A stretch of 59,294 bases of DNA, the filler included, from Globobulimina sp. (taxonomy: Eukaryota), in the NCBI GenBank assembly GCA_003354225.1. It is 7 parts of 7 records of this genome, joined end to end, with 100 filler letters (N's around TTAATTAATTAA, not from the genome) between each part and the next. Parts side by side here need not be neighbours in the genome. Positions count along the whole stretch, not along the records: positions 42,505 to 50,851 come from PIVH01000088.1; 6 more parts are not named here. One strand, given 5' to 3'. The position numbers and the translations under genes are program-made. The notes under the pieces were generated by a model, which saw nothing but the letters and a program-made list of their open reading frames with translations, made no database searches and was not told the origin of the DNA. Shown here in pieces: positions 12,383 to 59,294 of this stretch (within the stretch, counting starts at the first letter, position 1; every line of letters begins with the position of its first letter).

Positions 12383-12547
12383 TTTCCTTAAAATTGACTC
12401 ATATTTAATTGAATAGACAATGAGTTAAAAAGTTTGATTTAATTACAATTCCCCCCATTTTTTCCACTCTTTCCGACCTTTATTCATAACACAAACGTTT
12501 CTGAGTATAAATAAACGTTTCTAAGTTTACTTTATGAATTTACTTAG

Positions 12548-14283: not shown

Positions 14284-14422
14284 GAACGTGCACAAACAGT
14301 TCCCATGATTCAAGCAGATTTTAGGAGGACTAGAAAATTTTTCTTTGGACTAACTCTTTTTTCCTTGAATTATTTTCAGATTGAGAAACGTTTCCATAAC
14401 ATATGATGTGTTTTAATTTCAG

Positions 14423-15729: not shown

Positions 15730-16076
15730 ACGAATTGAATGACCAATTGACTTTTACTTGCGGTTCCATGACAACACCACACGTTTTGACGAAAAGACTA
15801 AGACTCAGAAAACTAAAAACCAAAAAACACGTTTCACGACACACAGGGACACACGGGAAGGTGATTTATTTATAATTTACAAATTAGTTTAATTATATAT
15901 TATATTTAAATCAATTCGGAGAATGAAGTTTCTGATACTTTATATTTCCGGAGTTTTACCCCGAAAGAATATCAGTTTGTGTCGTGGAATGCATGGTTAA
16001 ATGAACAGAGTTCAATTCTCTGTCGTTCCCCAGAATGGTCTTTATCTTTGGAGAATATTTTTGGGAACAATCATTT

Positions 16077-16830: not shown

Positions 16831-16927
16831 GCAAGAATACTAAAGTTTTATTTATCTTTGATCTTTTTATAAAATAAATAGAGATAATATGCTGTATGCA
16901 ATCCTTATATTTGGTATTTTGTTTGGT

Positions 16928-17027
16928 NNNNNNNNNNNNNNNNNNNNNNNNNNNNNNNNNNNNNNNNNNNNTTAATTAATTAANNNNNNNNNNNNNNNNN
17001 NNNNNNNNNNNNNNNNNNNNNNNNNNN
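16928..17027. other. Artificial contig spacer
   Basis: N44-TTAATTAATTAA-N44. Confidence 0.98.
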
Positions 17028-21470: not shown

Positions 21471-21895
21471 TTAGGTTTTGTGGATTCTGTCTTTTTAGGG
21501 GGAGCGTTCTAAATTGTGTTGAAAAGTCAGTCTGTGCTTCTAAGCCAAAACAAAAATGCAATTCTAATTGAATTATTGTAAGAAATTGTTTACATTCTGG
21601 GGAGTTATTGAAAAAATAAAAAGGTAGAAAAGTAGAGTATTCTATTATTATCATCAGATTGCAAAGAAATAAAATCTCAAAGTGCGAATCCGAAATAACA
21701 GAATGGTCTCTGTCTTTAATCAAACCAAACACATTCATGTCGGCGTAATATAAAAAGGAAAGGACTGAGCAGAGAATTATAATTAATGCAGAAATAATTA
21801 GCAGGAAATTAATAAATGGGGGATATATTTACATAAAATATTCGTAGGATCTCGGTTGGTTGGAATTCTTTTATTGTTTACTTTTTTTAATCTTA

Positions 21896-24800
21896 TCATT
21901 TATTTAAATTATTAATTAAAACATCATCTTTTTTCCGTCGGTTTTGCTTTTTTTTCTTTCTATTTCTGTTATTCTTAAACGGCAACTTATTTGCTGACGC
22001 ATTCTGACTATTTACTTTTGATAATTTATTTTCTAATACATTCACTCGAAAGGATGCCGCTTTATCGTTTTTGGATTGCATATAGTTTGGCATATTTGGT
22101 TTTTCTTGAACTGGATATAATTTTAATTTGGGAGGTTGGGGTTTACGTTGTTTCTTTCTCTTTACATTACTCACCGTATCAATATCCATCGCTGGCATCT
22201 CATCAAACGTATATAAGTCGGTATTTGTTGATTGGATGGCATTCATTATGGATGGTTGCAAATTATTTAGATCATTCGCAATTTCTTCATTTAATATCGA
22301 TAATAATGTGTTATCGACATACGGGTTGGCGACATATTGCTTATTCTGATTATTTATCTCACTATCAACCAATTCGATGTTTTTAATTTCATTAAATTCA
22401 ATGGTTTGCGATGAGGCGTCTTCAAAGTCTTCAGCGTTTAATCCATGTGTTGATAAATGATTTGTTGGCAAACTTATCGCATCGTTTTGGCATAATACAT
22501 TGGGTTGGATTGGGTCGGGGTTATTGTTGTTATTATCAATGATATCTGGGAGGGTTTGAGAGTTTGTCGCCGCCGCACTATAATTTTGTGGATAGGGCGT
22601 CTTATTTTCATTATCCAAGTCCAAGACAACCTGTTTTTTATTTGTATCTGTATTTGTATCAATCACTTTGTATAACTCCGATAGCTTTAGATTCGAATCA
22701 AATGTACAATTTATCAATTTATAATGATCCAAATTCTCAAAATTAATATCCCTCCAAATCGAATTAATATTATCCAAATTCTCACACATTTTCACCAAAT
22801 TAAATGAATCCGAACAAACTAAAATATTGAGAGTCCGAATATGTTTTGATTTGTGGCAACATAGACAACACTCTTCGTCTTTGTCGTCCATATCACAATC
22901 ACTGCCAAAATGACCCCATTGACCACATTTAATGCATTTAACGGACACAATACCATCGATTTCTTTTTCCATTTGTTTCTCAGTTATTTTGCCGGATTTA
23001 TATTTTTGTTTGATTTTATTTGTCTGTTTTCTGATATAATTCGCTTGTTCTTTGCATTTGGAATGGGGCACAAATTTCTTTCCGCACGCACATGTTTTAG
23101 ACAATGCAATATAATCTAAATACATATTGCTACGGAGTAATATCATATATTTCCGGATCGCACCAAATCTAAACTGCATTGCAGGGAATCCCAACGCTTC
23201 ATCGCCAACAATTAATTTCGGATTTATTCCATTCACTGTTATTGGAGTGACAAAAACATTTTTTTCTTCAAAAATAATATCAGATTTAAAAGGTTTGCGA
23301 TTATGATGTATACAATTATCAGCTGCGACAAACTCAACCATTCTCGTCCATTTCTCCGGTTTATACCACCACGGCAACGATAAATCACTGCCGGTTTCAT
23401 TGCTCATATGGAACAATGTGTTCCTACACCACCTTCTATTTTTAATTTTATTTGATATGATAATATCATCCGGTTTCACCACATATTTATCGATCAATTT
23501 TAATATGTCCATATACTGCAAATTAGCCTCATTCGTAATATCATCATACCATAAATCCGCATTTACAGATTCATCACTGTCTTCATCTGATTTCCTTTCT
23601 TTGTCTTCATTCATTGGAGTGGGACCGGCACGTTCTTCCTCTAACTCTTTTTTCGCTTTTTTCAATCGTTCTAATTTAATCTCATACGGTTTAATTAAGA
23701 ATAGCATCAACGGCGTATAGTCTATCTTCGACATATCATAATCGTTTCTCATCGCCCATTCAATTGTATACAGCAGAAATGTCGAATGGATATTCGCTGT
23801 AATTCTATTGTTTAAGATTCGATTCAATGAGTTATTATTCAAAATACGTAATGGCAAATTAAACAGGCACATATTCACAGGTCGTCATTGTAATCGCTTC
23901 TTGACATAAACAATTTCAATATCATTATGTAAATAGCGCGGGAATGGCACGTCCCAATCGAGATCCATTAACATTGATTCTGTGCTAGATCCAATTATCG
24001 GGTCCAAATGTAACATTGTTTTATTATTAATTACTATCGTCGATGGAATTAAGTGATGGATTACCAATCTATGCATTGGATGATGTGTGTTTGTATACTG
24101 ATATATAATTCTAATCGCTTTGGCGTAATCTGGGTGTCTGCCAATGATCAAATTCATGAATTTGCTCACTGGGCAGTAAATATTGAGAGAGTTTGTCGTC
24201 ACCATAACATTGCTGATATCGCAGCAATTCTCCACCTCCCAAATCTCACGGTATTCTCTTAAATCTACCGCCACTGCTTTCAAATTTACTTTATCTATAC
24301 GGCAATCCCATAATACACCGTTTTTTAATTCATATTTAACAAAAGCGTTGGTTCTCTTAATATTTTTAATTTGGTCCGCTACAATCTCAGATTTATTAAT
24401 TGGTTGCACTTCCTTTGGTTTGGTGGCTCTTTTCTTTCGCGGTCTTCTATGTGCAGGTTGGTGTCGTCTTGGATACATATTTAATTCCAATGACTCTTTG
24501 TCATTCTCAATAATCATAGGGAGCGTTGTATCCCCTCTGGTAAAAGTATTAAATGTGGACGGAGGGATCGCTGGGCTGACTTTTGATGGGTTAATATTAT
24601 CATTTCTTTCTATAGCGCACTGTTTCCAATCCGGTGCATAGAAATTCACGCCCATTTTTGTGATGACGTTAATATTATATTCCGCTGCGGGGTTATTCCA
24701 TTTTGGCGCTTGATTTGGTAATGTTACATCTTCTTTGAATAATACTTTAAATATATTCTTTCCTCTCATATCTAATGTGTCTTTCATGTAATATACTCTC

Positions 24801-25108
24801 TGTCGGTGGGCCGGAATTAATCTGCCTTGGCATTGGACCTGTTTCAATGATAAGTTTACATCGATTAATTGAGCATTTTGGATTGGTTGGTGTGTATTCT
24901 TTGATATCTTTTCAATATGGTTGACTTTCGACGCGTTATCATAGTCTGATGGTAGCATAGTTATGCGGATTTGCGATGGATCTGTATACATATTGGACGA
25001 GGAAATATATAGTATATAGTAAATATGTATAAATATAGGGGATTCAATATTCATTATATCAATCATTTTAATGGTGGTCATTTTGTTATCATTATGTGTA
25101 AAGAGCAT
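21896..25108 (-). CDS. LINE ORF1 (gag-like, zinc knuckles), interrupted by one in-frame TGA at 23885-23887
   Basis: ORFs 23885..25108 and 21896..23878 are in the same frame (..KKRLQ*RPVNM..). CIKCGQWGHFGSDC knuckle plus further Cys/His clusters. True start uncertain. Confidence 0.7.
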
Positions 25109-25437: not shown

Positions 25438-25537
25438 NNNNNNNNNNNNNNNNNNNNNNNNNNNNNNNNNNNNNNNNNNNNTTAATTAATTAANNNNNNN
25501 NNNNNNNNNNNNNNNNNNNNNNNNNNNNNNNNNNNNN
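25438..25537. other. Artificial contig spacer
   Basis: N44-TTAATTAATTAA-N44. Confidence 0.98.
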
Positions 25538-33930: not shown

Positions 33931-34030
33931 NNNNNNNNNNNNNNNNNNNNNNNNNNNNNNNNNNNNNNNNNNNNTTAATTAATTAANNNNNNNNNNNNNN
34001 NNNNNNNNNNNNNNNNNNNNNNNNNNNNNN
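33931..34030. other. Artificial contig spacer
   Basis: N44-TTAATTAATTAA-N44. Confidence 0.98.
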
Positions 34031-42404: not shown

Positions 42405-42504
42405 NNNNNNNNNNNNNNNNNNNNNNNNNNNNNNNNNNNNNNNNNNNNTTAATTAATTAANNNNNNNNNNNNNNNNNNNNNNNNNNNNNNNNNNNNNNNN
42501 NNNN
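42405..42504. other. Artificial contig spacer
   Basis: N44-TTAATTAATTAA-N44. Confidence 0.98.
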
Positions 42505-42666
42505 TTACACACAGAAAATGATATGTAATCTCTTCACTGTCACAACTTTCAATGAGAGGAAGTATTATTTCGTACCAATACCATCTCCTTTTATATAAAA
42601 TTGATATTTTGTAATTCGACTTTTTATAAGCCGCTCTAAATAATTCCATTACTATTTCTTCATTTG
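42505..42666 (-). CDS. Start of an ORF running off the contig; candidate N-terminus of the element 2 RT
   Basis: Phase-1 acceptor ttgtacatag|CA at 42667 followed by ~54 stop-free codons to the contig end. Same position relative to gag as the RT in element 1. Confidence 0.45.
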
Positions 42667-43281
42667 CTATGTACAAATATATATATATTCAACTTTTTAA
42701 AAGATATATGTGTCCTGACCACACCACATATGCCCCACCATTTTTCTATGGATCTTACGCTAATCCAAACATACAACACTGTATTCTTGCAACCATCAGA
42801 TATAATTTTATCTCCTTACTTGCTAACGCACTCTTTATTTATTATAAAGACACTCAAATAATAGTTGAGGACATTCAAATAATGCATAACAAGGCAAACA
42901 AAACACAATTTTTATGTGCAACTCACAATATATATTTATTTCAATATAAACAGAGGAGTTTTAGTTTACTGCTAAAATAAAATTAAATTACACCATACCC
43001 CTTTCTTTTTAAAACCCCCTCAAAATTTATTCTCTCTTTTTCATTTTATTAAAAACTAAAATCATTTCCATACACAAATATATATAGAAATAATGGATCC
43101 TAATAACATTCCAATTATATATAATATGCCCACATATTTTATCATCACAATCCATGGACAAACATACAAATAATAAGAATAATAGATATAAAAATATTGT
43201 ATATATTTGAAATGAGAATAAAATTAATGACAGATCCGTCATCAACAAATAAAATTGGATCCAAAACATCGCAAATCTCCC

Positions 43282-46212
43282 TTAACGTCCGCGACCTGCA
43301 AATCTCTTCGATTGCGCATTGGGACAGTCATAGGAGGTATGTTCATTTGCAATGCCACATCTTTCACAATAATGCGGATAGCCGCATAATAAAAACTCAT
43401 CCTTGAATTTACAAACATAATTATAATCAACCCAAAAATAACAAGGTTTCTCTCCATAATATTTATCTTTAATAAAATAAGATCCATCATTCAAATTATA
43501 AAATCTCGCTCCTCTTTGATAGGGTTTATTTCCCTGACTCGAATCCCTCCGATTATTTGCATTCTGATTATAATTTCGACGACGTTGATAACTATTATCC
43601 TCATACGAGTCACGCGAATCTCTCCCATCCCTCGTATCTCTATCTCGTCTCTGCTTTTTTCTTGGCGAACCATATGGTGTTCCTCCATATTGCGATTGAT
43701 TCGGTGGTGTTTTATTATAACTCCGATCCCGACTTTCCCTCAATCTCTTTCTTAACCTTCTATTATTTCTCTCTAATTTATTATTATTTTTATTTACTAA
43801 CTTTGGGCAATTCCTTTTTAAATGTGGTCCACCACAATGATAACATTTTATTTTTCTATTATATTTTCCCTGTTTGTCATCCACTGCTTCTCCACCAACA
43901 TTCTTTCCAACTCTTTTCCCAACATCTTCCATCAATATGTCATTGTCACCATCTCCTACAAATAGTAATTTACATTCATTCGGCAAACATTCAATCGCAT
44001 ACAACTTACTTTCCTCTGAATTCATATGCAATTTCCATGAATGTGAGAATTCAGCGGATTTCCAACTTAATATACCTTCATCATTATAATCCCTCCATTT
44101 ATTAATATATAAAGCAATCGATACTTTTTGCCAGAATATACTCGGCGATATTGCCTTATTATTTATCATTGGAAATAATTGAGTTTTTGCAAATATTCTC
44201 ATTTCATTTATATTCCTAATAATCAAAGAATATAATTGGTTAAATCTAACTTGCTTCGCCGAATATGATAATAACATATCCAACGCCCTCAATGTGATGG
44301 TTGTCCATAATGTATGAAATGTTATTTTATTACTTATAAACTTTTTCAATGCTGATTTTATATTAACTCCATAATTCAAATGAATTTTCCAATGACTTGC
44401 CCACATAAACTTTATTATATAGAAAGGATCTCCGAAACCAAATACTAAGAAATGTATAAATTCCTTTAACGCCAATTTTAGCTCAGCTTGTTTCAATAAA
44501 TTGATACCATCATTCTTATTAATTTTATCATGTAACATTCCTCCTAAAATAAAACAATAATATCAATCCATAGCAAACAATCAAAATAAACAAATATACA
44601 GAATACAAATAACATATATAAAATTAATATAAACATTTTAGTATTATTCCTTTAATCATAATAAAAAGAAATGGACACATATGTGGTGCTGATAAACGCG
44701 TAAAATAATAAAGGTTTTAAACATATGAAATACATAAAATATCTCCGATACTAAAGATATATGCCCCAACAAACACAATACACGCACGTATTGGAAAAAT
44801 TATATTTTTTGATTGCCGGGCAGGGAACACAATAGTTTTGCATACAAAATTCAAGAAATTAAAGATATAATAAAGGGTACATGATACATACTTGTTGCAA
44901 TGTGTATCATCGCATTACGTGTATCTATCGGCGTCAGCTTGGGTTTTCTCAGAATCCCCCAAATATTATCAATGCTTTCCGCCATCAATTCATTCACCGC
45001 ACTCATGGATCCTTTGGGGGTAAAGATCTTCTTCAAATGGTCCAAATCATCACTCGTCGGATTATATTTATTATCTTCCTTCCCCAGACCATGACTATCC
45101 GCATATCTTTTGATATTCTCCATTGAATTCACTTTATATTCCGCGGATTTGCTTTTTTCAATCTGTTTTTCTAATTTATCAATGTAGGATTTTAACAATT
45201 CCGTATTGTCTCCGTCCATTAATTCATCCGCATCGAGAATATCATTGATTTCCTCTCTCGTTACCTCATCCATTTCATCATCGAAACGGACTTTTCCTTC
45301 ATCTCCATCTCGTTCTTTCATATCCTCATCACTCGATCCGTCAGAATCGTCAGATTCCGGTTTATCTTCCTTCTTTTTCCTAACTATATTCCTTATTTTT
45401 TTACCTAATTTTGATTTTTTCTTTTTATCTGGTTTTGGTTTTCCCGCTTTCGGCTTCTTCCCCTTTTTGGGTTTCTTAGCGGAATCAGCCTTTGGATTCG
45501 GAGGAGGGACTAAAGAGGCAAAGTGATTATTTACTCCACCTTGAAATGCCTGGAATGCACCCGATGCAATGCTCTTTAATTCAGCCAAATTAAATATATC
45601 TTCTATCTGCTTCGATTTTAAATTCGCTGCTTTCTTAAATATCTCCTTCGATAATAGACCTAAAGCCAACGCCTCCATAACCTTCGAGCAATTCCTTCTT
45701 AATTCCAACACAGTCTCCTCCTCTTCCTCCACCAATTCAAAAGCACCTAATCGATCATATTCTACATCCATAAATGTATTATTTTCCTTCATTAAAAACT
45801 TATTCAATTTCGCATGTAATGTATTCCATAAATCCTTCAATGTTAATAAAACATTAAAGTCCAATGTACTCATCACCTCTTTGAATAAAATCGTTAATAA
45901 AGAAGCAACTTTTTGCTTTTTATTCAATACATCGATCTCATTCTCACCTTCCTTTTTATTAAATCGTGGATATAATCTCCTAAATAATTCCACTTTGCAT
46001 TCAAATTCAATCGCCACCATCATCGTTACCTGCGCATTCTGTATAGATTGCGGATTTCTATCCTGTGGCTTATCAAAATCAATGCTCGAAGCATAGCCCG
46101 GAAATAATAAAAAGGTGGTATTCATCCATTCATCCAAATCTCTCAATTTTAATCCCTTCCGTAAAGCATACGCTTTTGCTTTTGATATACCTGTAATTAG
46201 ACCTAACGCCAT
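43282..46212 (-). CDS. gag-like protein of element 2, spliced: 46212..44892 + 44543..43282
   Basis: Donor ACAA|gtatgt at 44891 and acceptor ttttattttag|GA at 44544 join in frame. CYHCGGPHLKRNC knuckle, R/D/S-rich tract, terminal CYFW..C..C..PHYCERCG..HTSYDC finger. Confidence 0.78.
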
Positions 46213-46705
46213 ATTTCAATGTACTACGTAAGTAATCTCGATATTAATCTGACTGTATAAACAACGTATTAATATCTGGCACGTAATTGCCTGACTTTCA
46301 CGCGACTTTATTAGCCCTAAGATATATCACTAATCTCTCTTTCTAAATATTATGCAAGAAAAAAAGAAAGAAGCAATCCAACAACACAAAAACAAAAAAC
46401 ACTCTCAGTCAGTCACTTCAGTTTACTTCTAATTGAATGAAACTTTCGTCGCTTACACAACGTTCAGTTTTATTGACAATTATTCGATGTGGATAAATAA
46501 CAATTAACTTAAATTTAATTATTTATATTTCATAACACATATTAACCATATACAATAATCCCAAACCTATTCCAATCTCCATCTCGTTCATACTTAATAT
46601 ACATTATAATACATACAAATTAATATTAAATAAACTAAATACATCCACATCGAAATAATTACATTCAATACTTACTATCTAACTATATCCCCCCCACCAT
46701 TTAAC

Positions 46706-48036
46706 TTAATCTGTCAATTCATATTGACATAAACTTGTTTGATAACTATTAATATAATCCATAGAGAATTTTTCTTTATTATTATTAAACTCCGTAACCA
46801 AATCACATTCATTTGCATCCATATCTAACAAAATTCTATTATTATTTTTACCATAAATAAATATTTTTGCCAAACCAATCAAATCCCTCTGTGTATGTAT
46901 TAAATATCTATAAATCGCTGCTGTCAATTTCCATCTCCCAGCAAATGCAATTAAACTCATTGGCACACATTTTTGTTGAAGAGTTGTGGCAAAACCCTTC
47001 CTCAATCCATGAAATCTATATCTATCTGCTTCCCAAAAGCCCATTTCATAAATCACTTTCTTCCAATATTTTTTAATTGTCCTCAATTTAAAGCTTCTTT
47101 TAATTGGTTGAAACAAATAATATTTCCTCAAACTTTTCTTATGGATTTTCTTTAAATCTCTCTTTTGTGTATGATAAATATGATATAGAATTATCACCGG
47201 ATCAATCTTATTATTTGTCCTCCCAATTCTTAGCATAACATCTTTTCCCTTCGTCTTCCCCTTCGAGTTTCTCAGCCTAACTCGAACATGATGTAAATCA
47301 TCAAAAGCAAGGGAATATGCATTGTTTTGATAGATTCTCTCCTTATTGTCATCCAACCAATAAAAATCTAAATCAGATAAATAAATACCATAACCAACAT
47401 AGGCTTTATTATTATTCTCATAACATTCAGCTCCTCGTAATCCTAAAACACCGACAAATAATAAAGACATAGCAAACATATACCAAAACAGTCTGCTTTT
47501 GTCCCTCCATATTTTCTCAAATGACAACCAATTCAATTTTAATTTCTTTTCATTATCTGTCAATATCAAATTATTGTATACTTTAAACATTAATATATAT
47601 TTTATAATTTGAAACAAAACATCTGCTGTCACCGGTAAAGTATCTGATCCTTTTCCCGGGTTTGTTTTCTTCACATATTTAGCCAATGCATATAGTGCCG
47701 GGTTGTCGGACCATGACTGAAACTGCCCACATAATTGCGCCACAAAATCAATCGATCTATATTTTAATCTCATCGTTGGCCAACAATTCAACCTCTTCTG
47801 CACCATACAGCACTGAATCGTATATAATTGTAAAAATGCATCCGGAGTCGGAAAAGTCCAGACTTCCTCATCAGTTAAACCAAAATTCCTCATCGTCTTC
47901 CAATAATATAGGAAATTCTTCATATATGTCGTCTCCGATGATTCCTTAACTCCACCCCCTAAAGCCATAAATAATAATTCTTTATATATAGGATTAACTT
48001 TTGACCATATTGGGTGATCATATTGTCTCCCTCTAA
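46706..48036 (-). CDS. Tyrosine recombinase of element 2
   Basis: GLRGAE (R), RNSKG (K), FHGLRKG (H-x-x-R), AGRW, IYRYL (Y). Starts at acceptor atatatag|TT (48037) with no ATG at the N-terminus. Confidence 0.9.
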
Positions 48037-49215
48037 CTATATATAATACATATAACAAAATATAAACACAGAAAAAAGTGGTTTTTCACACTTTTAACTA
48101 AAAATAAAACTGGTGCCCCCTGCCAAAATCAAAAACCATGACACCTACAGACACTGAACAATATATTCTTAAATAATATGCCATATTGCCTCTATAGTCA
48201 CTCGCTACACAATACATCGTCACTCCATTTATACAAAAACAGAAACGCTATCATTATATCCATCGTCATATATGGCAATATCGCTAAATTATTATACTAT
48301 TCATTGAAAATATTAACATAACACATATATATGCATTTTATCAATATATAACAAGACAGACGTTTCCTTGAGATATCTCATGTCGAAATGACTTGTTTCT
48401 GAGTACCCGGTCATACATTCATGATATCTGCGGGAAAGGAGTTGAAACCACGCAAATATTCACCAATTACATAATAAAACATTGCCACAATTATCTATTT
48501 GTATACATATCCATGGACAAACAATCTCTTTTTTGAGGGTAATAAATCCACCCAAATCCTCTGAAAAACATAAAAATGATGCAATCGAATCAAATAATCA
48601 CCAAATATACTCTGAAAAATTTAAAACAAATCCTTTTCAACAACGACATTCCTCTCAACTTAACATATTGCCAACAAATCACATTCTAATTTTATGTTGA
48701 AAACACCAATGATTTGCCATATATTTAATCAAATATTCACATTCTAACCCATTATGCATCGAATCTAACTTCAAACGTATATTACAACAGAAATTACACT
48801 CAAATCTGATGAGTAATCAAATGACAAAATATTAAAAATATATTTTAATTGTAAGAAAAATCTGTAAATTTAATCAAAATTGATGATATTATTCAAATTC
48901 TATTCATTAACAATAACAATAACAAATTAATACACAAATTATATGGAATTGTATACAAAATACCAGTCATTACTAAGTCAATCCGTTATTGCTGATAAAC
49001 GCAAACAACGTCGAATCAATACTCAGTCACAATAAATACATTATAATTCACCTTAATATCAGTCATCAAATACAAAAATATCCATTATTAACATATTAGA
49101 ATATGCAAAAGACAGCAAAACCAAATAATACATTACAAAATGATATAATTACACAAAATAAATGGATATTAACGTGAAATAAATGGATTCGAATCTACAA
49201 AGCTACGAAACCGAA

Positions 49216-50851
49216 TTACCATTCATGTATGTTCGGAATCTTACATTCTTTTGAAAAGTCCTTCAAAATCCACCCATTTCTCCTACATTCCTTTCTTGCT
49301 GCTTTTAACAACGATTTTATCTTAAACCTCGACGCCAAATCTGGGATCTTGTTTGCTTTCGTATTAATATAATCAATGTATAAATTTATTGATACTTCCA
49401 CGGCAAACATACAAATCCAACGGACCCCATCCTGTAGGAATTCATCATCTGAGTTTTTGTTGATTATAACAGATAAAACGTGTTTGTTATCTGTTTTTAA
49501 TAATATCTTTGTATGCGATTTTATTAAATGTTTGAACGTATGCAATCCTGTGATAATTGCTAACAGCTCAAAGTGTGCGATCGCATATTCTTTTACATAT
49601 TCTGTACGTAATGATCTGTACTCATTCGTAAACCTTTCGGGTATTGGTATTGCAAACCAATTCCCTTTATACCAACAACCAATCGCCGGATTCCAACCTA
49701 ATTCACGTTCACCGTTAGTCGCCGCATCAAAATGTATCTCGTCCTCTGGATATATCGGAGCACATATATCAAAAATCGACACCTTATTTACAATCCGTAT
49801 ATATTTTTTCCACCATAAAAAATCTAACATCTCCCATCTCTCTAAAATAATAATTACATTCTTCCTTCCATATAATTTTATACATTTATACAATTTATCT
49901 CTTAATCTTTTTAGAAAAGCCTTTCCCGGCCACTTAAATCCCGAGAAATCCTCCAATTTCCCAATAATCGATTCAAGCGTTTCTAAATCAACCACTTGAT
50001 GTAATAAAACCGCATTCAATAACTGTTCTATTTTAAATATCTTTACTTCCCTTATTATCACAGCCATATCTTCCGTATCCACATCAAATCCAATCATATC
50101 CAGATATTCATCCGGTCCCTCTCTCTTTTCTTGTTTTTCAACCAAACCTGCATTTAACATAAATTCTGAAAACTGCCCAAATATATTATTTGCAATTGAT
50201 TGCGAAGGAGGGAGAAAGAATAAATAATCATCAATATAATTATTGACAATTACCTTCAATAATTGTTTACAATCCATTTTTAATTTTATTAATAAATTAA
50301 AGAAATCCACTTCCTTAAAGATATTTAGTTCCTTCCTTGATAATACTTCCTTTGCTTTGTATATATTAAAAGATAATAAACGTAATCCATTAAATAATAA
50401 ATTATTAACAAATGGTAATATTGCCACCATTTTATTCTCTATTAACCATCTCTTAATACATAATCTATCCCATTTAAATAAAACTTTATTATCAAAGATA
50501 TAATTCCTATTCTTCTCATTCATTTTCTTATTCATTTTTTTATTATATTTCTTATAAAAGTATAATAAATTCCTTTTCTCAATACCTTCATTAATATCAT
50601 TCAATAATTCAATACCATTTATTTTAATGTTAAAATATCTACAAATTAATTGACCAACATCTTGAGTATGTTTTGAACCAGATCTGGTCCCCCAAAAATC
50701 ATATAAATCCGCAATTAATTTCTCATCAAATTGATAAATACAATTCTCAGGTTCAGTTATAGCTAAATATAACTGTCTGAATGCAGTCGCCAAATCTGTT
50801 TTGGCCAATTTAAACCCAGGACCCCATACTAAATACATCATATAACAATAA
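49216..50851 (-). CDS. Reverse transcriptase-RNase H of element 2, 5'-partial
   Basis: KTDLATAFRQL, FWGTRSG, YIDD, MIGF; RNase H FDAA..IAHFELLAI..KTDN..NKIPDLASR. Frame is open to the contig end. Confidence 0.9.
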
Positions 50852-50951
50852 NNNNNNNNNNNNNNNNNNNNNNNNNNNNNNNNNNNNNNNNNNNNTTAAT
50901 TAATTAANNNNNNNNNNNNNNNNNNNNNNNNNNNNNNNNNNNNNNNNNNNN
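50852..50951. other. Artificial contig spacer
   Basis: N44-TTAATTAATTAA-N44. Confidence 0.98.
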
Positions 50952-53900
50952 TATGCAAAGTGTCCGCTTAAGTCGGCAGCCGATACACTATCTCCGCGAT
51001 CCGTTAGTGGCTAAAATCATGAACCAATTAATTAGTAAATGTTACAACAGACCAAAACAAGTCTTCATGCCCTCCCAATTCACGCCCAAAGTGAGCAATG
51101 TCTGCAATAATACGCACGACGAGGATAACGATACGACCATGGCAGAGAACACAAACACAGAGAATGAGCATAAACACGTCGACGAGGACAGCACCAATGA
51201 CAAAATACGGCCCTTTGCAGTGATATCAGACTCATCCACGCCGCCACCAGCCAGCAAACGACAGAAGAACAAGGTGAGTGTACCGCAATTAGTGCTGCCT
51301 ATTGTGCCCATTCCGACTGACAATTATGGCCACGAAGTGTACCAAATCACGTGCAAAATGATCTCAGTCTGCATCCAAAATGGCGCCGGATTAGGAGTAG
51401 GCAAAATATTCCACGAATATGGCGTGACTTCGACCTTTGTCACCTCACTCACTAAGGTTTGTATGCTTGCCTTGTCATTGTATATCTATTTCTATCCGTT
51501 TTCATGTGTTTTTATTATCAAAAATATATATTTATAAATGTGTATTTAATCACACTTATAATTAGCAGGGTGTACCGAACCGATCGCAAGTCTTTCAAAT
51601 CGTGGTCGAGTGTTTGCGCGCCATTTGTCTGTACCAACCGGCTTTAGATATGATTATGGAAAGCGGTGTGATTGAATGCCTGATTCGGTGCTTTGCAAAC
51701 CCAAACTATACAAGTCAATTAACGGCGGAGGCCGCGGGCTTTTTTGCCAAGAAAATGGAGGAATTGTTGCGGCATAATCGCAAATTGCAACCGTACGGAA
51801 TTAAAGCCATCGTACGCACACTGAAGCAATTACGGAATAAACCATACTTAGAACTGAAGGAAATGTACAGTTCGCCCATCTATTTCCAAGATAATGCGGA
51901 TATAAATCGAAATGATATATTTCCATTCGAGGATGACGAAGAAATGCAATTAATTACCAATCCGACCAAAGCCAAGACGGATAAAAAAGATATATACCCA
52001 CTGTTCCCCAGCAATGAGAAGATAAAAAAACGCGTGATTTACCCCAAAGAGCCCTGTTTCACCGGCGATAATGAAGCATTTTGGAGCGCGGTTACAAATA
52101 TTGGCAAATTTTTAGAAACGTCATTGAAGAAATTCACGCAATGGGAATTTGTCAAGAATGGCGGTATGGACGCATTGGTACAATTGTCGTATGACCCCAT
52201 CATGCATTCGGTCGCTGCGATGAAAACCAAAGTATTCAAACCGGAGAAGGCCAAAAAGGAAAATAAAACCGAAGAGAAGGTGGATAGTGACGAGAAAAAG
52301 CCCGCCATTAAAATGAAAGATGTCACTGCGGAGATATCCGCTAAATTCGGCTCCTTAGTCGTCCCCGCCACCAATCCCAAGATGACCACTGCTCAAAAAG
52401 CAGTGGCAAACTCCTACCCTCACATTGAAGATACGGAATGGCCCAATTTAATCAACAAGTTATTGGACACCTTTTGCGTGGCGGATATTAGCGATGAATT
52501 CGTGAAAAGGTTTCATTATTACACGTTGGAGGAAGTGAATGGAGATTTGAAGCAATTAAAAATCAAACACCAGGAATTGGCGGATGCGCTGAAGACGGGG
52601 TCGCGTATAACTTGCTTGTTTTCCATATTGACGCGGTTAATGCGCAGGGCAGACATCAAAATCATACACAAATCCAAATTTTACTTATTCATGAAGTGTT
52701 TGTCGGATATCATACCGGGCATATTGTGGTATATGAGCTGTTCCGATACCAACTCTGTACACGAACAAGCATCGAAATTGCGGCGAGAAGTGCTGGGCTT
52801 ACTATCCAATGACGAAAAAAAGGAAAAGGAAAAGGGCAAAGATGGTGTGGACAAAACACAGAAAAACAATGAGGAGGATGTTCATGATGATAATGATGAC
52901 GATGTTGATATGACGCAGACGCAGACACAGAATGAGAAAATAGTACAGGAGCAGTTTAACGGCGTATTTATTAACATTCGTTATTATGAATGTCAAGTGG
53001 TGTCGTTAATGAATCACTTCACCAAATTCTTCAAAAACGCACTGCGAATTTATCGCCGCAGTCAGGATGGTCGGCAACGTAATCAATTCCTGGTGCAAAA
53101 TAACCAGAATGCAGTGGAATATATGAGTCATATGTTACATATCTTGATTGCTTTCAGAGCGCCGCTCTTAGGCAAATCTCACGAGGCGGTGTTCGACTTT
53201 TGGAGTATCACTCAATTTTATGAATATGTGTGCCATATCATTGAAGCGATGGCCTTCACCTCACACAAAACCATCGTGGAAGGTTTGATTAAATCCTTTA
53301 TTCAATATGGCGGCTTACAGCGTATTGTAAAGATCTTCCGCTATTTCGTGCATTGTTTAAATTTAACACTACATTCTTCGTGGAACAATAACACAAATGA
53401 CGGCAAAGCGTATATATTGTCATTAGATGCGGAGAACCCGTCCAATCCATTAAATTCCATCATTCATGGCGCCAAATATTTATTTATTAAATCGGACCAT
53501 TCCGACGATGAGGACATTAAAATCCGATTTTGTACGGAAAGTCTAGCTCAAAAAAAGAAGAAAAACGTCAAAGAAGTGGACAGCGAGCAAGAGAAACGCA
53601 AAAAAGAAGCGGAGGCCCAGAGCAAATATGGCATGAACGGAGTGGTAGAGAATTTAAAGTCTGTTGTGCTGCAATTTTATAACTTTTTATATTCATTAAT
53701 GAAAGCTGGCAATGTATCGGAAGTACATCCGGATTTTCGCAGGTATTTAGCGGTGGAATTGGCAGCTTTGTTGAAATCGTCATGGATTACGCAGCGAGAC
53801 GTGGACCAATATTTTAAACCGACGGATTTTGCCTTGATTGACAAGATTGTGGATTCTACGAATGAATACATTACGATTTGCACTGCGTACAACCTCGAAT

Positions 53901-56900
53901 ATCCCCCACCGGAAATCAAAGAGGAGAAGGAAGAGGAAAAGGAGGTGGAGGATGATACAAAAAGCAGCAAAGAAGAGGAGGAGAAGAAAGAAATGGATGT
54001 GGATATTGACGAGGATGACGACGATGAATGCGATGAGAATAAGAATGATACGGACGAGAAAGTAGTGCCTCCCGCGAGGCAGAATGCCATTGATCAGCTA
54101 TTGAGCATTGTGCCTGATGACAGGGAGTTAGTTGTTTATGCATTGGATGCGTTGCAAGAATCCGCGCCCAATAACGTCTCCGTGGCGTTAGAGTGGATAT
54201 TTACGCATCAAGAGGCCTGGAAAAAAAAGAAGGAAACCGAGGCCCAACAAGAAAAAGAGGCGACTATTAACGATGACGATGAGATTAAATATTATTTTAA
54301 ATCCATTGAGAAAAAAGAATTCAATGCGGCTATAACTACGGCGTTTTACGACGAGAAAGAGAACAAAAAAGTGGATGAGACGTCGTTGGTGTATTTGAAA
54401 TCGGATAAGGATACGTTTAATGCGCCGATATACTGGGAATACTATCCTTTATTCACCGATATTACCAATGAATTGATCGCGCCGTTGATTGGTTTAATTG
54501 ATAAAATGCCGTGCGAGGATCAGGAAAAATGGACTTTCCGCCCAATGTCGCAACCAGACCAAGTGGAGAAACTGCTGAAACGCATCGCGTTGTTAATCAA
54601 AGCGGCGCATAAATCCATAGGCGACATCAAAATGAAATGCTTGAATAAAAAGCAGATATGGCAAGAGCAGCAGCAAGCGAGTTATAAGGAGATGAAGAAG
54701 CGGAAAGTGGCAGAGTTGATTGATGCGCAGGAAATGCGCAAAGCGGAGCTGTTAAGCAAGAAATTGGCCAAGAAAGAAGCGGCGGAGAGGAAGAAGAAAG
54801 AGGCTGAATTGGCGGAATTGGAGAAGAATAAACCAAAGGAAATTGTGGATAATGCGTCGGATGAGTCGTATGACGAAGATGAAGAATTGCGGCTAGCGAT
54901 GCAAATGTCGATGATGGAGCAGTCGGATGAAGCCAATGAGGAACAAGAGGCTGATCACAAAACAGAGACTGAGGCTGAGATTGAGATTGTTCCCGTGCCC
55001 ATTGACGACGGCGCACCTCCTGTGATTGAGGAGAGTGAGGCAAAAATGCAGGTTGATAATAAGGATAAAGCTGTGGAGGAGGAGGAGGAGGATGAGGAGA
55101 ATGAAGAAGAGGAGTTTGAGACGGAATATTTTGATGAAGATGATGTGACAGAGACGGAAGAGATGCGCAAATTGTTAGTGTTCGCCACTCCGCCAATGTA
55201 GAAACAAGATCAGACTGAGATATTATTGTATAGTATCAAGACGTTGTTACGTATGTTTAACTCGCCGCGATATCCCAACAACCACGCCGCAGCGTATTGT
55301 TTTGCCATTTTACAAGATGCGGAGCCAAGGACTATTTTCATTGCGCAGGAAAATGGATTGTTGCGGACCATATGTGAGCTGATTGAGGAATGTTGCAAGA
55401 ATTTATCCGAATTGAGGGCGAAATTTGTTGATAGGGATTTAGAGGAAAAGACGTATAATGAATGCAAGACTCAGATTAAAAAATATCAATCCTTAGCCAC
55501 TACGTATTATATTATCATCACTGGCTTTTTAAATAAAAAAGCCATACGGACGCTGAAGGAGAATTTGTTGGAAGATATCAACCGAACCCATCCCCATTTA
55601 TATAAAAATGTGACTACGCAAATTGCTGCGTTGGATAAAGAGAGCGCTGCAACAAAACAAAAGGAAATCACTGATAAAGAATCTGCAAAAAAAGAAATTA
55701 AAAAGAAAATATCCTTTGATGAGGATGTCGATGACGATGATGACGATGTGGTGGAAAGCAAAGAGAAAACGGATGATAAGACGCCGGATAATAAAGATGA
55801 TGGCGATGTGACTATGGGAATGATACAGGAAACGGAGACGGAGACAGAGGCGGAACCGGTGAAAAAAAGTAAGTATCAAATAAAAAAAGAAAGGCAAAAA
55901 GTAAAAAAAGCGCTAGCAAAATCAGACTCAGACAACAAGAAAAAAGCAGAAGATGACAAACATAAGCAAGAATTCGATATTTTATATGGATATATTCACA
56001 AGAAATGCGATAAAATTAAATTAGAAGCTGCTCATAAAAATGATTTATTATCCTCGTGTTTAAAATTATTAAATTTATTTACGTGGAAACCATACTTTAA
56101 TTCTTCAAATCATTCGTTGAAACCAAAATATTATTTACGCTTTCAATGCGAATCAAATCTATTAAATCGGATATTGACTATTTTGGAATCCATAACCTCG
56201 GAATATAAATACGCGAAAATGTTATTAAATGGCGAGGGTTACAAATGCATTTTAAATTGTTCCACGACCAGCTCTTCCACGGCAAACACGAGGATCTCGG
56301 GCATGGCCACCAGTATTATCCGGCACATATTCGACGAGCCATCGTTGTTAACCGATGCCATGATTCGGCAAATTAAGTTATCCTTTGAACATTTGCGGAA
56401 AACCTTTACTGGGAAACAGAAATCTGCCTCTTCGCCATTTGCCAATTTATCCGGCAATGCCACGCCGGAAACTGCAGTGTTTACCCAATTATTTGACCCC
56501 TTCATACCGCTGACTAACTTTATGAGCAGCTTCAAATCGTTGGCGGCGAGGAACGAGAGCTCCTTTTACAACGCAGTGAAAAATTCCTGCTTAATTGTGC
56601 GCGATGAAAAGTCGAAATTAATCCTATCTTCGCGCGAATTATTGAATAAATTTGCGTTGACATTGCGCCAAGAAGCGAAGCAAAATGGGAAGTGGGAATC
56701 GCAGGATCCGCGCACTGTGCAATGGATGTCTTACACTGACACGGACTGCATACGGATTGAGAGTGTGTACCAAGAGTTTGTGAACCGATTTATTAGCGGT
56801 AATTTGCAGAACTTCCATAGCATTCCGTCCACAGTGAGTGTGCATTTCGATGGGCAGGCTTTTACTGTGGATGTGCGAGAGTATAAACAGAAGAATAATT

Positions 56901-59294
56901 CTGGTGGATCGAGGAAGATACGGCGGCGGAGACTGAATTTGGAAGAAAAGCGGAAGAATGCACTGCAAGCAAAGAAGGAAGAAAGAGAGAAATTATTAAA
57001 GGAAAAACTGGAAAAGGAAAAGGCGGAAACTACAAAACCATGCGATGGTAACGAGGCAGACAAAGATAAACCGGAACAGAAAGCAGATGATAAATTGGAT
57101 GAGAATACAAATCAGAAAAAGAGTGAGAAGGAAGAAGCAGACGATGACGAAGATGGCGATGTAACCATTGCTGACAAAGAAAAGGATAAAAAAATATCAT
57201 CTCCGAGGTCGCCAATAAAACTCGCATACAAAGTGTTTAATAAATATCCAATGTGTCGGCCCTATTTAGAGCAGCATAAGACTGACGACAAAGTATTATC
57301 TTCTTTTGAAGCGCCACTAAATGCATTAATGTCCATTATTGTGCAGACTACAGTGGATATCAAAGATTATTGCATTATAAAACGCGTTGAAATGAAGAAT
57401 GATGAACGTGAGAGGAGACTGAAAAAGAAGAAAGAATCTGAGCAAAAGGAGCAGAAAGAAAAAGAAAAGGAAAATAATATTGTTGTTGATGATGATGATA
57501 TTGATATCGATGCAGATGTGTTGGATGAAGATATGGTTATTTTGACCAATAAAAAAGGCAAAACCACGGACACTACAGATAATGAATTGAAAATGGAAGA
57601 GGATGATGACGAGTTAGAAGATGCGTTGCCGTCCATATCTGCCATGCAAACCATACTGGGCAGCTGCCGATTATTTGCCATTGGCGATATGTTGAAAATA
57701 TTAAATGATATCATTGGGAACTACCCCAAATTCAGTTCGTTGGTGGTCAATTTCAACGCGAATACAGGCACACTTCGGTCCACATCATTTGTGCAATTCA
57801 TGATTGATGAATTAATTCCATATTCCTCGCCATTGAATGAATCTAAAAATGTGGTGAAACCGGATAAATCCACCATTGCTTCCAATTTATTGAAAAGCAT
57901 TGCTGGTTTGAATCAGGATAAAAACCAATTAAGCGACCAGAATGCGACCAAATTTGTACTCAGTACGTTAGTGAAACACATCGGGAATCACAGCAGTAAA
58001 TTATACCGATTATCCACTTGGACAGAACTGGAAAAACAACCAAGTTTAGCCGGTACTAAATGGAATCCGATGGAGCGAATGAACAAGAAATTAGTGAAGA
58101 AGCATGAAAATAAGATATTGGAGCAACTATACCAAGTAAAGTCTAATTTGGAAGTGCTACGCGATTTTGTCAAGACGCCCAGTGACAGATTTTGTCGATT
58201 TGCCGCGCGGATATTGACGGATTCCGAAGTGATCGATACTGTTTGCAAGGTATTAGAGTCTAAATTCGATTATGGATATTGCAAAACGGAAGTAACCAAC
58301 AATCGGATTATTGGTAACAGTTTAGCCCGTTCTGTGGAGTTAAAATCCAATTTCTTAAACCCAATCGCCAAATTATTGCACAATATTTGCGAGATTGATA
58401 GTATTAATCCTATTTATAACCAATTAAAATCACAACGACGCAAATCACGGAAGCGGAAAAGTATGGATAACAACTTGATGGATGTTGATAATAAATCCAT
58501 TGATAACACTGCGCCAACTTCGCCATTGTTGGAGTCTGACCCTATGATCAATGACGGCATTATTCACAGTACATCGGACGAACTAGCACGAGCAGCCAAT
58601 CCGAGCAACGATTTAGTACAATTCATATCGGATATATCCGGGCAAATGGGTGACATTGAAAATGTACAGTTTGAAGTTGAACACGTAGTGATCGATGGCG
58701 ACGGCAATATTGAGGACAGGAATTACGGAGTCATTGATTTTGATGACGGTGGCAACGAAGACGAAGATATGGTGGATTCGCAAGATATGAATGATGAAAG
58801 TAACGCAAATACGGAGCTGAATGATGGCGACAATGAGGACGACGACGATGAGGATGAGGATGAGAATGAAAATGATGAACAGGACGAAGACGAAGACGAC
58901 GAAGAGGATGAGGATGACGATGATGAGGAGGATGAAGACGAGGAAGATGATGAGCAATATAACGAGGAAAATTTAGACCGTTTATACGGACAATATGCAG
59001 AGGATGACGCGGACGCGTTTTATGACGATGACGACTTGAATGAATATGACGAGTACGGCGAGGAAGATATTGATGACGACGACGACGACGATGATGAAGT
59101 GGATGTACCGACCTCTGTCCATCGCATTGCCAACGATTTTATGGATGACTTGGGCGGTTCGGATGATTTTCGTCAATTTTTCTTACGTTCCCAGCGCTTT
59201 GCCAATATCCGAAGGTTAGATTCGATATTAAATGGTGATGAGAGCGCCGCCATTCCCCGCCATGTGAATCGAGCCGGCGGGCAACCCCAAGCCG
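50952..59294 (+). CDS. HUWE1: HUWE1/UPL1/Tom1-like E3 ubiquitin ligase, internal fragment (introns 51457..51568 and probably 55174..55233)
   Basis: ARM-like AICLY..MEELLRH; UBA (AIDQLLSI..NNVSVALEWIFTH); UIM (DEDEELRLAMQMSM); WWE at ~56680-56930 (KWESQD..QWMSY..IES.Y..FTVDV..KQ.N....RKIRR); long acidic tract at 58700-59100. The last exon is open to the window end; the HECT domain is not in the window. Confidence 0.8.

What the first reader, a model, noticed from the sequence alone, without database searches (positions are those of the whole stretch)
42505..50851. Circularly permuted element: extrachromosomal circle or head-to-tail array
Seen: the sense-strand order is RT (C-terminal part), YR, gag, start of a new ORF, whereas element 1 is gag-RT-YR. 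Both contig ends fall inside open frames, only ~490 nt separate the YR stop (46706) from the gag ATG (46212), and no host DNA is present. Known: YR retrotransposons are modelled to replicate via a circular dsDNA intermediate. Inference: the contig is a linearised circle or tandem array, and 46213-46705 holds the end-to-end junction or recombination site.
Basis: partly seen in the sequence, partly recalled or inferred. Interest (0 to 1): 0.75.

Follow-up and report, generated by a model that had tools for sequence, protein, structure and literature searches.

The report
Circularly permuted retrotransposon contig, cause unresolved
This small contig is nearly one full copy of an intact tyrosine-recombinase retrotransposon written in rotated order, which shows its tail is joined to its head in the sequencing data but cannot show whether that join is a free circle, a tandem array or an assembly shortcut.

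Summary
The window is seven contigs joined by artificial spacers, and 42505-50851 is one whole contig. On its sense (minus) strand it reads: RT/RNase H ORF lacking its start, 1.1 kb spacer, tyrosine recombinase (YR), 493-nt spacer, orfA, orfB (two CCHC-like knuckles), 0.6 kb spacer, then a 48-codon ORF running off the end. A profile of 8 public homologues shows that this last ORF is the N-terminus of the same RT gene (E=8e-7; BLASTP E=8e-9). Both ends therefore lie in one gene, about 119 codons (~360 nt) apart, and the unit is about 8.7 kb.

Nothing in the contig occurs twice. The ends neither overlap nor abut, and the YR-orfA spacer carries no junction signature.

The contig is a rotated, slightly sub-unit-length copy of an intact Ngaro-like element. 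The data cannot separate three sources:
- assembler collapse of same-orientation terminal repeats (my favourite, ~0.5);
- a real head-to-tail array (~0.3);
- a free circle (~0.07).

Reads or the assembly graph are needed to decide. This is a new member of a known kind, of modest interest.

The parts
49216..50851 (-). RT/RNase H ORF, 5'-truncated by the contig end. 544 codons, from RT motif A (KTDLATAF) through YIDD and RNase H to a conserved C-terminus and stop.
   Evidence: RT_RNaseH E=6.9e-5, below the Pfam cut-off; 10 homologues, 35-50% identity; HMM 169-713, E=3.9e-219; Ty3 RT/RNase H chains at profile positions 578-695.
50269..50478 (-). SAM-like insertion inside the RT, between the motif-B-like WGTRSG and YIDD. 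The c2 RT lacks it.
   Evidence: the family profile matches the SARM1 SAM domain 6o0t_A (E=8.3e-5, profile 281-360) and other SAM domains more weakly; weak SAM_1/2/3/PNT Pfam hits in a few of 10 members; c2 skips HMM positions 239-372. One search gives the coordinates.
47969..49215 (-). Non-coding spacer between the RNase H stop and the YR ATG (1130 nt without any long frame, 1247 nt up to the ATG). Function unknown.
   Evidence: No Rfam or tRNA match. No repeat partner. The 54-nt similarity to c5 is AT-rich chance.
46706..47968 (-). Tyrosine recombinase ORF, intact, with the catalytic set R-K-H-x-x-R-W-Y.
   Evidence: Phage_integrase E=1.6e-5, below cut-off. (35 homologues, 10 of 35 carrying PF00589). 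(R177, K235, H319, R322, W345, Y354 invariant in 14 sequences)..
46213..46705 (-). 493-nt spacer joining the YR stop to the orfA ATG. This is the tail-to-head join and the candidate position of the element's ends.
   Evidence: No direct repeats, and only short AT-rich inverted pairs. No tandem repeat of note. Same strand bias as the ORFs.
44851..46212 (-). orfA, 453 aa, helical with a K-rich and acidic middle. It sits in the first 'gag' position but belongs to no known family.
   Evidence: 0 hits; 1 weak hit, E=2.3e-5; model pLDDT 39, unusable.
43282..44538 (-). orfB, 418 aa, with two CCHC-like zinc-knuckle motifs (aa 232 and 391). It is the nucleocapsid-like gag candidate and the positional counterpart of c2 ORF2.
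   Evidence: zf-CCHC at aa 230-246, E=1.2, not significant alone; model pLDDT 38, unusable.
42650..43281 (-). Non-coding spacer between the orfB stop and the RT start.
42505..42649 (-). Start of the RT/RNase H ORF: ATG at 42649, then 48 codons running off the contig end.
   Evidence: HMM positions 4-49, E=8.2e-7; E=8e-9 to P0001 residues 13-62.

Best explanation
Contig c6 is about 96% of one unit (8347 of ~8.7 kb) of an intact Ngaro-like tyrosine-recombinase retrotransposon, written in rotated register. The unit is orfA, orfB (zinc-knuckle gag-like), RT/RNase H without a methyltransferase, then YR.

I think the rotation most likely arose in assembly. Copies of such elements carry the same sequences, in the same orientation, upstream of gag and downstream of YR (split direct repeats A1...B1A2B2). 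When several near-identical chromosomal copies are collapsed, the read graph closes into a loop (internal part, then B, then A, then the internal part again). The low-coverage branches into host DNA are pruned. The loop is then output as one contig, cut where the copies differ or coverage fails, here inside the first quarter of the RT gene.

Shown: the gene content, the intactness, the rotation, both ends lying in one gene, and the absence of any duplicated segment.

Inferred: that the assembly is a short-read draft, that the family is multi-copy, and that it has split direct repeats.

The element's life cycle is inferred from family knowledge only: transcription from upstream of orfA, reverse transcription by RT/RH, repair of the ends from internal repeats, and YR-mediated integration without target-site duplication.
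For: - Rotation and near-unit length: RT HMM positions 169-713 lie at one end and 4-49 at the other. If the second end of a contig through linear DNA fell anywhere within a unit length of about 8.7 kb, landing within ~360 nt of exactly one unit has a chance of roughly 4% (my estimate). A loop in the graph explains it directly.
- No segment occurs twice. There is no (BA)(BA) duplication and no ITR/ICR. That is what a collapsed loop holding one A and one B would show.
- The domain set matches Ngaro: RT/RH ends at a C-terminus conserved in all 9 rows that reach it (8 homologues and c6), no MT, PR or DDE integrase by Pfam, YR last. For Ngaro, A-pol-B-A-B repeats are the rule (passages in PMC3783388, PMC8547959, PMC4157794).
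- Seven contigs fall within 71 nt of each other in length, and other contigs also end inside genes. This points to a fragmented draft of thousands of contigs (inference).
- All ORFs are intact, as expected of a consensus of young copies.
Against: - The split direct repeats are assumed, not seen. A sub-unit contig cannot show them.
- The other YR-type element in the window (c2) runs into a kelch gene at most 312 nt after its last ORF and shows no B1-A2-B2 or A1/A2 repeats. Elements of this genome may therefore lack canonical repeats, although c2 is a distant family (26% RT identity).
- An assembler using read pairs should not walk B to A to the internal part unless real molecules support that path. 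That favours a true tandem or circle.
- Copy number and sequencing technology are unknown.
Confidence: 0.5

Rival explanations
1. The genome holds a true chromosomal head-to-tail array of two or more units. It could arise when a circular cDNA is integrated by the YR, or by homologous recombination, into a resident copy. The assembler collapsed the units into one loop, cut in the RT gene.
For: - It shows the same rotation, near-unit length and single spacer as the best explanation.
- It needs no mis-join.
- The strand bias is uniform across every part, so no foreign DNA lies between the YR and orfA.
- DIRS-1 is reported to insert preferentially into existing DIRS-1 copies (passage in PMC7192593). 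Two adjacent Ngaro insertions are described in Cafeteria (passage in PMC8547959).
Against: - No part of the unit is seen twice in the contig.
- A juxtaposition of two complete A1...B1A2B2 elements would give B-A-B-A in the spacer. It is absent.
- My two literature searches and five papers searched by term gave no report of head-to-tail arrays of YR retrotransposons ('tandem' 0 occurrences; the listing held nothing relevant).
Confidence: 0.3
2. The contig is an extrachromosomal double-stranded circle, the proposed replication intermediate of YR retrotransposons. It was abundant enough in the DNA preparation to be assembled, and the assembly linearised it in the RT gene.
For: - The contig holds only element sequence in one orientation, with all ORFs intact, the tail joined to the head by a single spacer, and a length close to one unit.
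- The circle is part of the accepted model (passages in PMC7192593 and PMC3266345).
Against: - The ends neither overlap nor abut, and ~360 nt are missing. Assemblers normally return a circle with overlapping ends.
- Where it was looked for, the extrachromosomal DIRS-1 cDNA was mostly linear single-stranded DNA, and junction PCR failed.
- Such intermediates are expected to be rare next to chromosomal copies (general knowledge).
Confidence: 0.07
3. Two separate insertions lie next to each other by chance, or one is nested beside the other. An upstream copy is cut by the contig end in RT, and a downstream copy is cut by the other contig end, also in RT. There is no loop in the graph.
For: Contigs of this assembly often end inside genes. 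YR elements are known to cluster and nest (passages).
Against: - It needs the coincidence that both ends fall about 360 nt apart in the same gene.
- It needs a clean join with no host DNA, no truncation and no composition change between the YR and orfA.
Confidence: 0.1

Closest known systems
Ngaro retrotransposons (order DIRS; zebrafish, fungi, Cafeteria)
   Same: RT/RNase H without a methyltransferase domain, YR as the last gene, gag-like ORF(s) first, no protease and no DDE integrase. The size range is similar: 6-7 kb in Cafeteria.
   Different: - There are two upstream ORFs instead of one gag.
- A 1.13-1.25 kb non-coding spacer lies between RNase H and YR.
- A SAM-like domain is inserted in the RT.
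- The split direct repeats A1...B1A2B2 that define the group's ends are not visible.
- No tree with Ngaro reference sequences was made, because none was on hand.
PAT / Kangaroo / Toc3 elements (DIRS group with split direct repeats)
   Same: Same cyclic gene order. Nematode-form Pat1 and Kangaroo keep their internal repeats between pol and YR (passage in PMC4157794), which is where c6 has its largest spacer. Pat1 gag has a zinc finger, as orfB does.
   Different: PAT elements encode a methyltransferase domain and c6 does not. The spacer has no repeat partner in the contig.
DIRS-1-like elements (Dictyostelium and others)
   Same: A YR retrotransposon with RT/RNase H, and the same proposed circle-and-recombine integration.
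   Different: - The DIRS-1 cyclic gene order is gag-YR-RT (recalled, from no call), the opposite of c6.
- It has a methyltransferase domain, inverted terminal repeats of 31-304 bp and internal complementary regions.
- None of these is in c6. The longest inverted pair is 38 nt at 71%.
Rotated contigs of LTR retrotransposons, and 1-LTR circles
   Same: The layout 'internal 3' part, one repeat, internal 5' part' arises both from assembler collapse of terminal direct repeats and from real circles. Sequence alone cannot tell them apart (general knowledge, from no call).
   Different: c6 has no LTR, no protease and no DDE integrase. Its terminal repeats, if any, would be of the split A/B type.
Element 1 of this window (contig c2, 8515-16927)
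   Same: Four ORFs in the order ORF1, ORF2 (Cys/His C-terminus), RT/RH, fourth ORF. This equals c6 after rotation. The RT/RH regions are homologous (26% identity over 266 aa, E=1.5e-15; HMM E=3.8e-40).
   Different: - c2 is linear in its contig and ends against a kelch gene.
- It has no SAM insertion.
- Its RH-to-fourth-ORF spacer is short (171 nt).
- Its strand bias is weak.
- Its fourth ORF is not detectably related to the c6 YR (hhalign probability 1.9%).

Membership tests
Tyrosine-recombinase retrotransposon (order DIRS in the broad sense) | Reverse transcriptase domain | tested here: met
   Motif A and YIDD are present. The family HMM aligns to the RVT_1-bearing part of the c2 RT (HMM 54-238, domain E=2.6e-14; c2 RVT_1 E=5.9e-7). 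RVT_1 itself was not reported for c6 or its homologues (0 of 10 members).
Tyrosine-recombinase retrotransposon (order DIRS in the broad sense) | RNase H domain after the RT | tested here: met
   RT_RNaseH was found in 8 of 10 alignment members, best E=6.9e-5, below the Pfam cut-off. The profile matches Ty3 RT/RNase H chains (E=0.0076 and 0.026).
Tyrosine-recombinase retrotransposon (order DIRS in the broad sense) | Tyrosine recombinase with catalytic R, K, HxxR, H/W and Y, in place of a DDE integrase | tested here: met
   Phage_integrase E=1.6e-5. 10 of 35 homologues carry PF00589. R177, K235, H319, R322, W345 and Y354 are invariant in 14 sequences. No rve or protease hit in any c6 ORF.
Tyrosine-recombinase retrotransposon (order DIRS in the broad sense) | Gag-like ORF upstream of pol | tested here: inconclusive
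   The call rests on position and two CCHC-like motifs in orfB only. There was no family match for orfA or orfB. The models were unusable.
Ngaro | No methyltransferase domain after RNase H | tested here: met
   The ORF stops about 77 aa after the RNase H match, at a C-terminus conserved in all 9 rows that reach it (8 homologues and c6). No MT family was found in 10 members.
Ngaro | Order gag, RT/RH, YR | tested here: met
   The order is met as a cyclic order. The linear start point is not known.
Ngaro | Split direct repeats A1-[ORFs]-B1A2B2 | tested here: inconclusive
   No repeat was found. However, a rotated contig shorter than one unit would hold A and B only once each.
Ngaro | RT and YR group with Ngaro reference sequences in a tree | not tested
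   No reference sequences were available from a tool, and sequences from memory were not used.
DIRS-1-like | Inverted terminal repeats plus internal complementary region; methyltransferase domain | tested here: not met
   The longest inverted pair is 38 nt at 71% with arms 6 kb apart. There is no palindrome in the spacers and no MT.
PAT / Kangaroo | Methyltransferase domain | tested here: not met
Extrachromosomal circle | Closure: contig ends overlap or abut | tested here: not met
   There is no end-to-end similarity. About 119 RT codons are missing between the ends.
Extrachromosomal circle | Read pairs across the ends, excess depth, exonuclease resistance | not testable with these tools
   No reads, no graph and no DNA were available.
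Head-to-tail tandem array | At least part of the unit present twice in the same orientation on one molecule | tested here: not met
   There is no self-match in c6 beyond short AT-rich words. The contig is shorter than one unit, so this test cannot exclude an array.

The most novel reading that the evidence does not exclude
The contig is the sequence of the long-postulated double-stranded circular intermediate of a YR retrotransposon, or of arrays made directly from it. The 493-nt stretch 46213-46705 would then be the first sequenced end-to-end (B-A) junction of an active Ngaro-like element, giving the recombination site of its YR.
Probability: 0.07. Interest if true: 0.7.

Novelty: new member of a known kind. 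Interest (0 to 1): 0.3.

Why it matters
If the tail-to-head join is physical (array or circle), it would give a concrete junction sequence for testing how Ngaro-type recombinases choose and cut their sites. That step is still only modelled. For DIRS-1, attempts to amplify a circle junction failed (PMC7192593, passages).

If the join is an assembly loop, the practical lesson concerns annotation. The unit should be re-linearised as orfA-orfB-RT/RH-YR, and the missing ~360 nt and the true ends should be looked for elsewhere in the assembly.

Either way the element looks intact, and so possibly active. Its family carries an unusual SAM-like insertion in the RT.

Tried and rejected
- **Terminal or internal repeats.** blastn of c6 against all 7 contigs, the repeat finder on c6 and c2, Tandem Repeats Finder, and Smith-Waterman of every spacer pair against mononucleotide shuffles. 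In one search, 3 of 6 c6 pairs were slightly above the 95th percentile and 0 of 6 were above the shuffle maximum. Nothing usable came out.
- **The one non-self blastn hit.** 54 nt, 78% identity, to c5. It is AT-rich chance.
- **Rfam and tRNA scans of c6 or the window.** 0 matches.
- **orfA and orfB as gag.**
  - Word-index search: 0 hits.
  - Exhaustive search: 1 weak hit.
  - Atlas: no usable lead.
  - Pfam at E up to 5: nothing significant.
  - AlphaFold single-sequence models: pLDDT 39 and 38, too poor for a fold search, so none was run.
- **PDB sequence search with the c6 YR and the c2 fourth ORF.** 0 hits.
- **c2 fourth ORF as a YR.** No integrase Pfam hit, no hit with the c6 YR-family HMM, hhalign probability 1.9%. 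The hhalign alignment does put R, W and Y under the catalytic columns, so the question is left open.
- **Independent copies with genomic context.** The genome-contig scans with the RT protein and the YR alignment found no relative. So the contigs carrying the homologues could not be read. These include an 8716-nt contig for P0015 and a 5368-nt contig length listed for both P0003 (RT) and P0020 (YR).
- **DIRS-1-type architecture.** Rejected: no ITR, ICR or MT.
- **A juxtaposition of two complete A1...B1A2B2 elements.** Rejected: no B-A-B-A in the spacer.
Full report
**What the window is.** The 59,294-nt window is not one locus. It is seven contigs of 8414, 8413, 8410, 8393, 8374, 8347 and 8343 nt, in order of decreasing length. 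They are joined by identical artificial spacers, N44-TTAATTAATTAA-N44. The finding's interval 42505-50851 is exactly the sixth contig (c6). Other contigs carry ordinary eukaryotic genes: CHASE, polysaccharide deacetylase, RCC1, SPEF2-like, MFS, and DUF913/WWE. There is also a LINE-type element. Several of these contigs also end inside ORFs. Seven contigs within 71 nt of each other in length implies an assembly of thousands of contigs, meaning a fragmented draft. That is my inference.

**Anatomy of c6.** The sense strand is minus. Reading down from 50851:
- An ORF open to the contig end, 50850..49216 (544 codons).
- 1130 nt without a long frame (1247 nt up to the next ATG).
- An ORF from ATG 47968 to the stop ending at 46706.
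- A 493-nt spacer, 46705..46213.
- orfA, 46212..44851 (453 aa).
- orfB, 44538..43282 (418 aa).
- 632 nt of non-coding sequence.
- An ATG at 42649, opening 48 codons that run off the other contig end.

Pfam gives RT_RNaseH for the first ORF (E=6.9e-5) and Phage_integrase for the second (E=1.6e-5). Both are just below the curated cut-offs. It gives nothing for orfA or orfB. The first ORF holds RT motif A (KTDLATAF) at residue 17 and YIDD at residue 205.

**The key test.** The first ORF has 10 public homologues at 35-50% identity, and 8 of the 10 are 680-728 aa long. I set aside the two short ones, P0008 (544 aa) and P0009 (380 aa). c6 therefore lacks roughly the first 175-185 residues of this gene. 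I built an HMM from the 8 full-length homologues, without c6, and ran it over all 1626 stop-to-stop pieces of at least 20 aa from the six frames of the whole window. Three pieces matched:

| Piece | HMM positions | E-value |
|---|---|---|
| c6 RT/RH ORF | 169-713 | 3.9e-219 |
| c2 RT ORF | 54-238 and 373-686 | 3.8e-40 |
| 42452-42688 (-) | 4-49 | 8.2e-7 |

BLASTP of the terminal piece against P0001 gives 20/50 identities to residues 13-62 (E=8e-9). Its Met lines up within a few residues of the start codons of P0002, P0006 and P0007. So the frame at the 42505 end is the beginning of the very gene whose remainder opens at the 50851 end. About 119 profile positions (~360 nt) are missing between them, and the ends share no sequence. 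The unit length is therefore about 8.7 kb, and the contig covers about 96% of it in rotated order.

**The recombinase.** The YR ORF has 35 homologues (E from 6e-143 to 5e-44). Ten of the 35 carry a precomputed PF00589. I aligned c6 with 13 of the 35. In that alignment R177, K235, H319, R322, W345 and Y354 are invariant (numbering starts after the initiator Met). This is the full catalytic set of a tyrosine recombinase (assignment from general knowledge). A PDB sequence search found nothing.

**The 'gag' region.**
- orfB has two CCHC-like motifs, CX2CX3HX4C at aa 232 and CX2CX5HX4C at aa 391. The Pfam zinc-knuckle model touches the first only at E=1.2.
- orfA is close to an orphan. It had no hit in the word-index search, one 173-aa hit at E=2.3e-5 in the exhaustive search, and nothing in the Atlas.
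- Single-sequence AlphaFold models of both proteins were unusable (pLDDT 39 and 38), so I ran no fold search.

**Element 1.** Contig c2 (8515-16927) carries, on the plus strand:
- ORF1, 9275-10966.
- ORF2, 11462-12382, with a Cys/His C-terminus.
- An RT/RH ORF, 12604-14283 (RVT_1 E=5.9e-7).
- A fourth ORF, 14455-15729.

A kelch-repeat ORF follows on the other strand from 16042 (Kelch_6 E=5.3e-7). So c2 leaves the element at most 312 nt after its last ORF. Rotating c6 gives the same four-ORF order.

The two RTs are distant: 26% identity over 266 aa. I could not confirm the c2 fourth ORF as a YR. It had no integrase Pfam hit, no hit with the c6 YR-family HMM and no PDB hit. hhalign gave a probability of only 1.9%, although that alignment places an R, a W and a Y under the catalytic columns.

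**Search for ends and junctions.**
- c6 has no self-similarity beyond short AT-rich words. The longest direct family is 38 nt at 71-74%, and the longest inverted pair is 38 nt at 71% with arms 6 kb apart.
- Local alignments of all six pairs of c6 spacers scored 23-37. Shuffle 95th percentiles were 34-35 and shuffle maxima 39-45. Three pairs were marginally above the 95th percentile and none above the maximum.
- The 493-nt spacer has no direct repeat and only short AT-rich inverted pairs. No tandem repeat is notable.
- Rfam and tRNA scans are empty.
- c2 likewise shows no A1/A2 or B1/B2 repeats.
- This excludes a DIRS-1-type architecture (ITRs of 31-304 bp plus ICRs; passages in PMC3266345). 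It also excludes a juxtaposition of two complete A1...B1A2B2 elements, which would give B-A-B-A.
- It does not exclude one B-A. That is what a circle, an array made from circles, or a collapsed loop would each contain.

**Composition.** On the sense strand every part of c6 is depleted in C. GC skew is +0.31 to +0.47 in the ORFs and in three of the four spacers, and +0.13 in the orfA-orfB spacer. The other six contigs have |skew| of at most 0.14.

**Interpretation.** The shown facts are an intact unit, rotation, near-unit length, ends in one gene, and nothing duplicated. They say that in the read data the tail of the element is continuous with its head, and that the path closes, or nearly closes, on itself. 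Three physical sources give this result.

1. *Collapse of same-orientation terminal redundancy.*
   - Ngaro- and PAT-type elements carry A1-[ORFs]-B1A2B2 (passages in PMC3783388, PMC8547959, PMC4157794).
   - c6 has the Ngaro domain set: no MT, YR last.
   - With several near-identical copies, the host branches are weak. The graph then reads internal part, B, A, internal part. A contig cut at a variable or poorly covered stretch of RT is the natural output.
2. *A real head-to-tail array.*
3. *A free circle.*

Against the first source: the repeats are assumed rather than seen, c2 shows none, and pair-aware assemblers should resist the mis-join. Against the second: no segment is seen twice, and I found no report of such arrays ('tandem' had 0 occurrences in each of the five papers searched by term; the search listing had nothing relevant). 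Against the third: the ends do not overlap, and the only experimental work I read found mostly linear single-stranded cDNA and no junction PCR product (passages in PMC7192593).

I put these at about 0.5, 0.3 and 0.07. About 0.1 goes to two chance-adjacent partial copies.

**Where the junction is.** It has no sequence signature. The 1.13-kb spacer between RNase H and YR is the largest non-coding block, and it sits where nematode-form Pat1 and Kangaroo keep their internal repeats. It remains a second candidate.

**What stayed unchecked.**
Two scans of genome contigs found no relative.
- No reads, depth or graph were available.
- No phylogeny with reference Ngaro, PAT, DIRS or VIPER sequences was made.

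**Verdict.** c6 is a new, apparently intact member of the Ngaro-like YR retrotransposons. Interest is 0.3.

Noticed in passing
window 50269-50478 (-), inside the c6 RT ORF: The RT of this family has a ~70-residue insertion between the motif-B-like WGTRSG and YIDD. A family profile matches it to SAM domains: SARM1 6o0t_A at E=8.3e-5, with liprin, neurabin, Scm and DGK-delta more weakly. A few members get weak Pfam SAM hits. The c2 RT lacks the insertion. One literature search found no paper linking SAM domains with YR retrotransposon RTs.
   Followed up: partly
window 42505-50851, whole contig c6: There is a strong, uniform depletion of C on the sense strand. GC skew is +0.31 to +0.47 in the ORFs and in three of four spacers. 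None of the other six contigs shows it (|skew| at most 0.14). The cause is unknown.
   Followed up: partly
window 47969-49215 (-): A 1.13-1.25 kb stretch between the RNase H stop and the YR start has no long frame, no repeat and no RNA family match. The corresponding spacer in c2 is only 171 nt.
   Followed up: partly
window 8415-8514, 16928-17027, 25438-25537, 33931-34030, 42405-42504, 50852-50951: The window is a concatenation of 7 length-sorted contigs joined by N44-TTAATTAATTAA-N44 spacers. Neighbouring segments are therefore not neighbours in the genome.
   Followed up: yes
window 17154-25108 (-), contig c3: This is a full-length non-LTR (LINE-type) retrotransposon. A 1438-aa ORF carries endonuclease, RVT_1 (E=8e-32) and RNase H domains. 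Two ORFs of 660 and 407 aa precede it and match no Pfam family.
   Followed up: no
window 14455-15729 (+), contig c2: The fourth ORF of element 1 sits where a YR is expected, but no search detects it as one. In the weak hhalign alignment it has Ser where the c6 family has the box II His (…YSIR…), while R, W and Y line up. Its only Pfam lead is the topoisomerase C-terminal domain at E=0.0095.
   Followed up: partly
window 16042-16741 (-), contig c2: A kelch-repeat gene fragment lies at most 312 nt downstream of element 1 on the opposite strand. It gives that element a host boundary.
   Followed up: partly
proteins P0015, P0003, P0020 (public homologues): The YR homologue P0015 (54% identity) is listed on an 8716-nt contig, close to the ~8.7 kb unit predicted here. 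The RT homologue P0003 and the YR homologue P0020 both list a 5368-nt ENA contig, so they may lie on one contig. These contigs could not be read.
   Followed up: no
window 51602-59293 (+), contig c7: Two long ORFs of 1199 and 1356 aa are separated by 24 nt and carry DUF913 and WWE domains. This looks like one large HUWE1-like ubiquitin ligase gene split by a short intron or a frameshift (the name is recalled, from no call).
   Followed up: no
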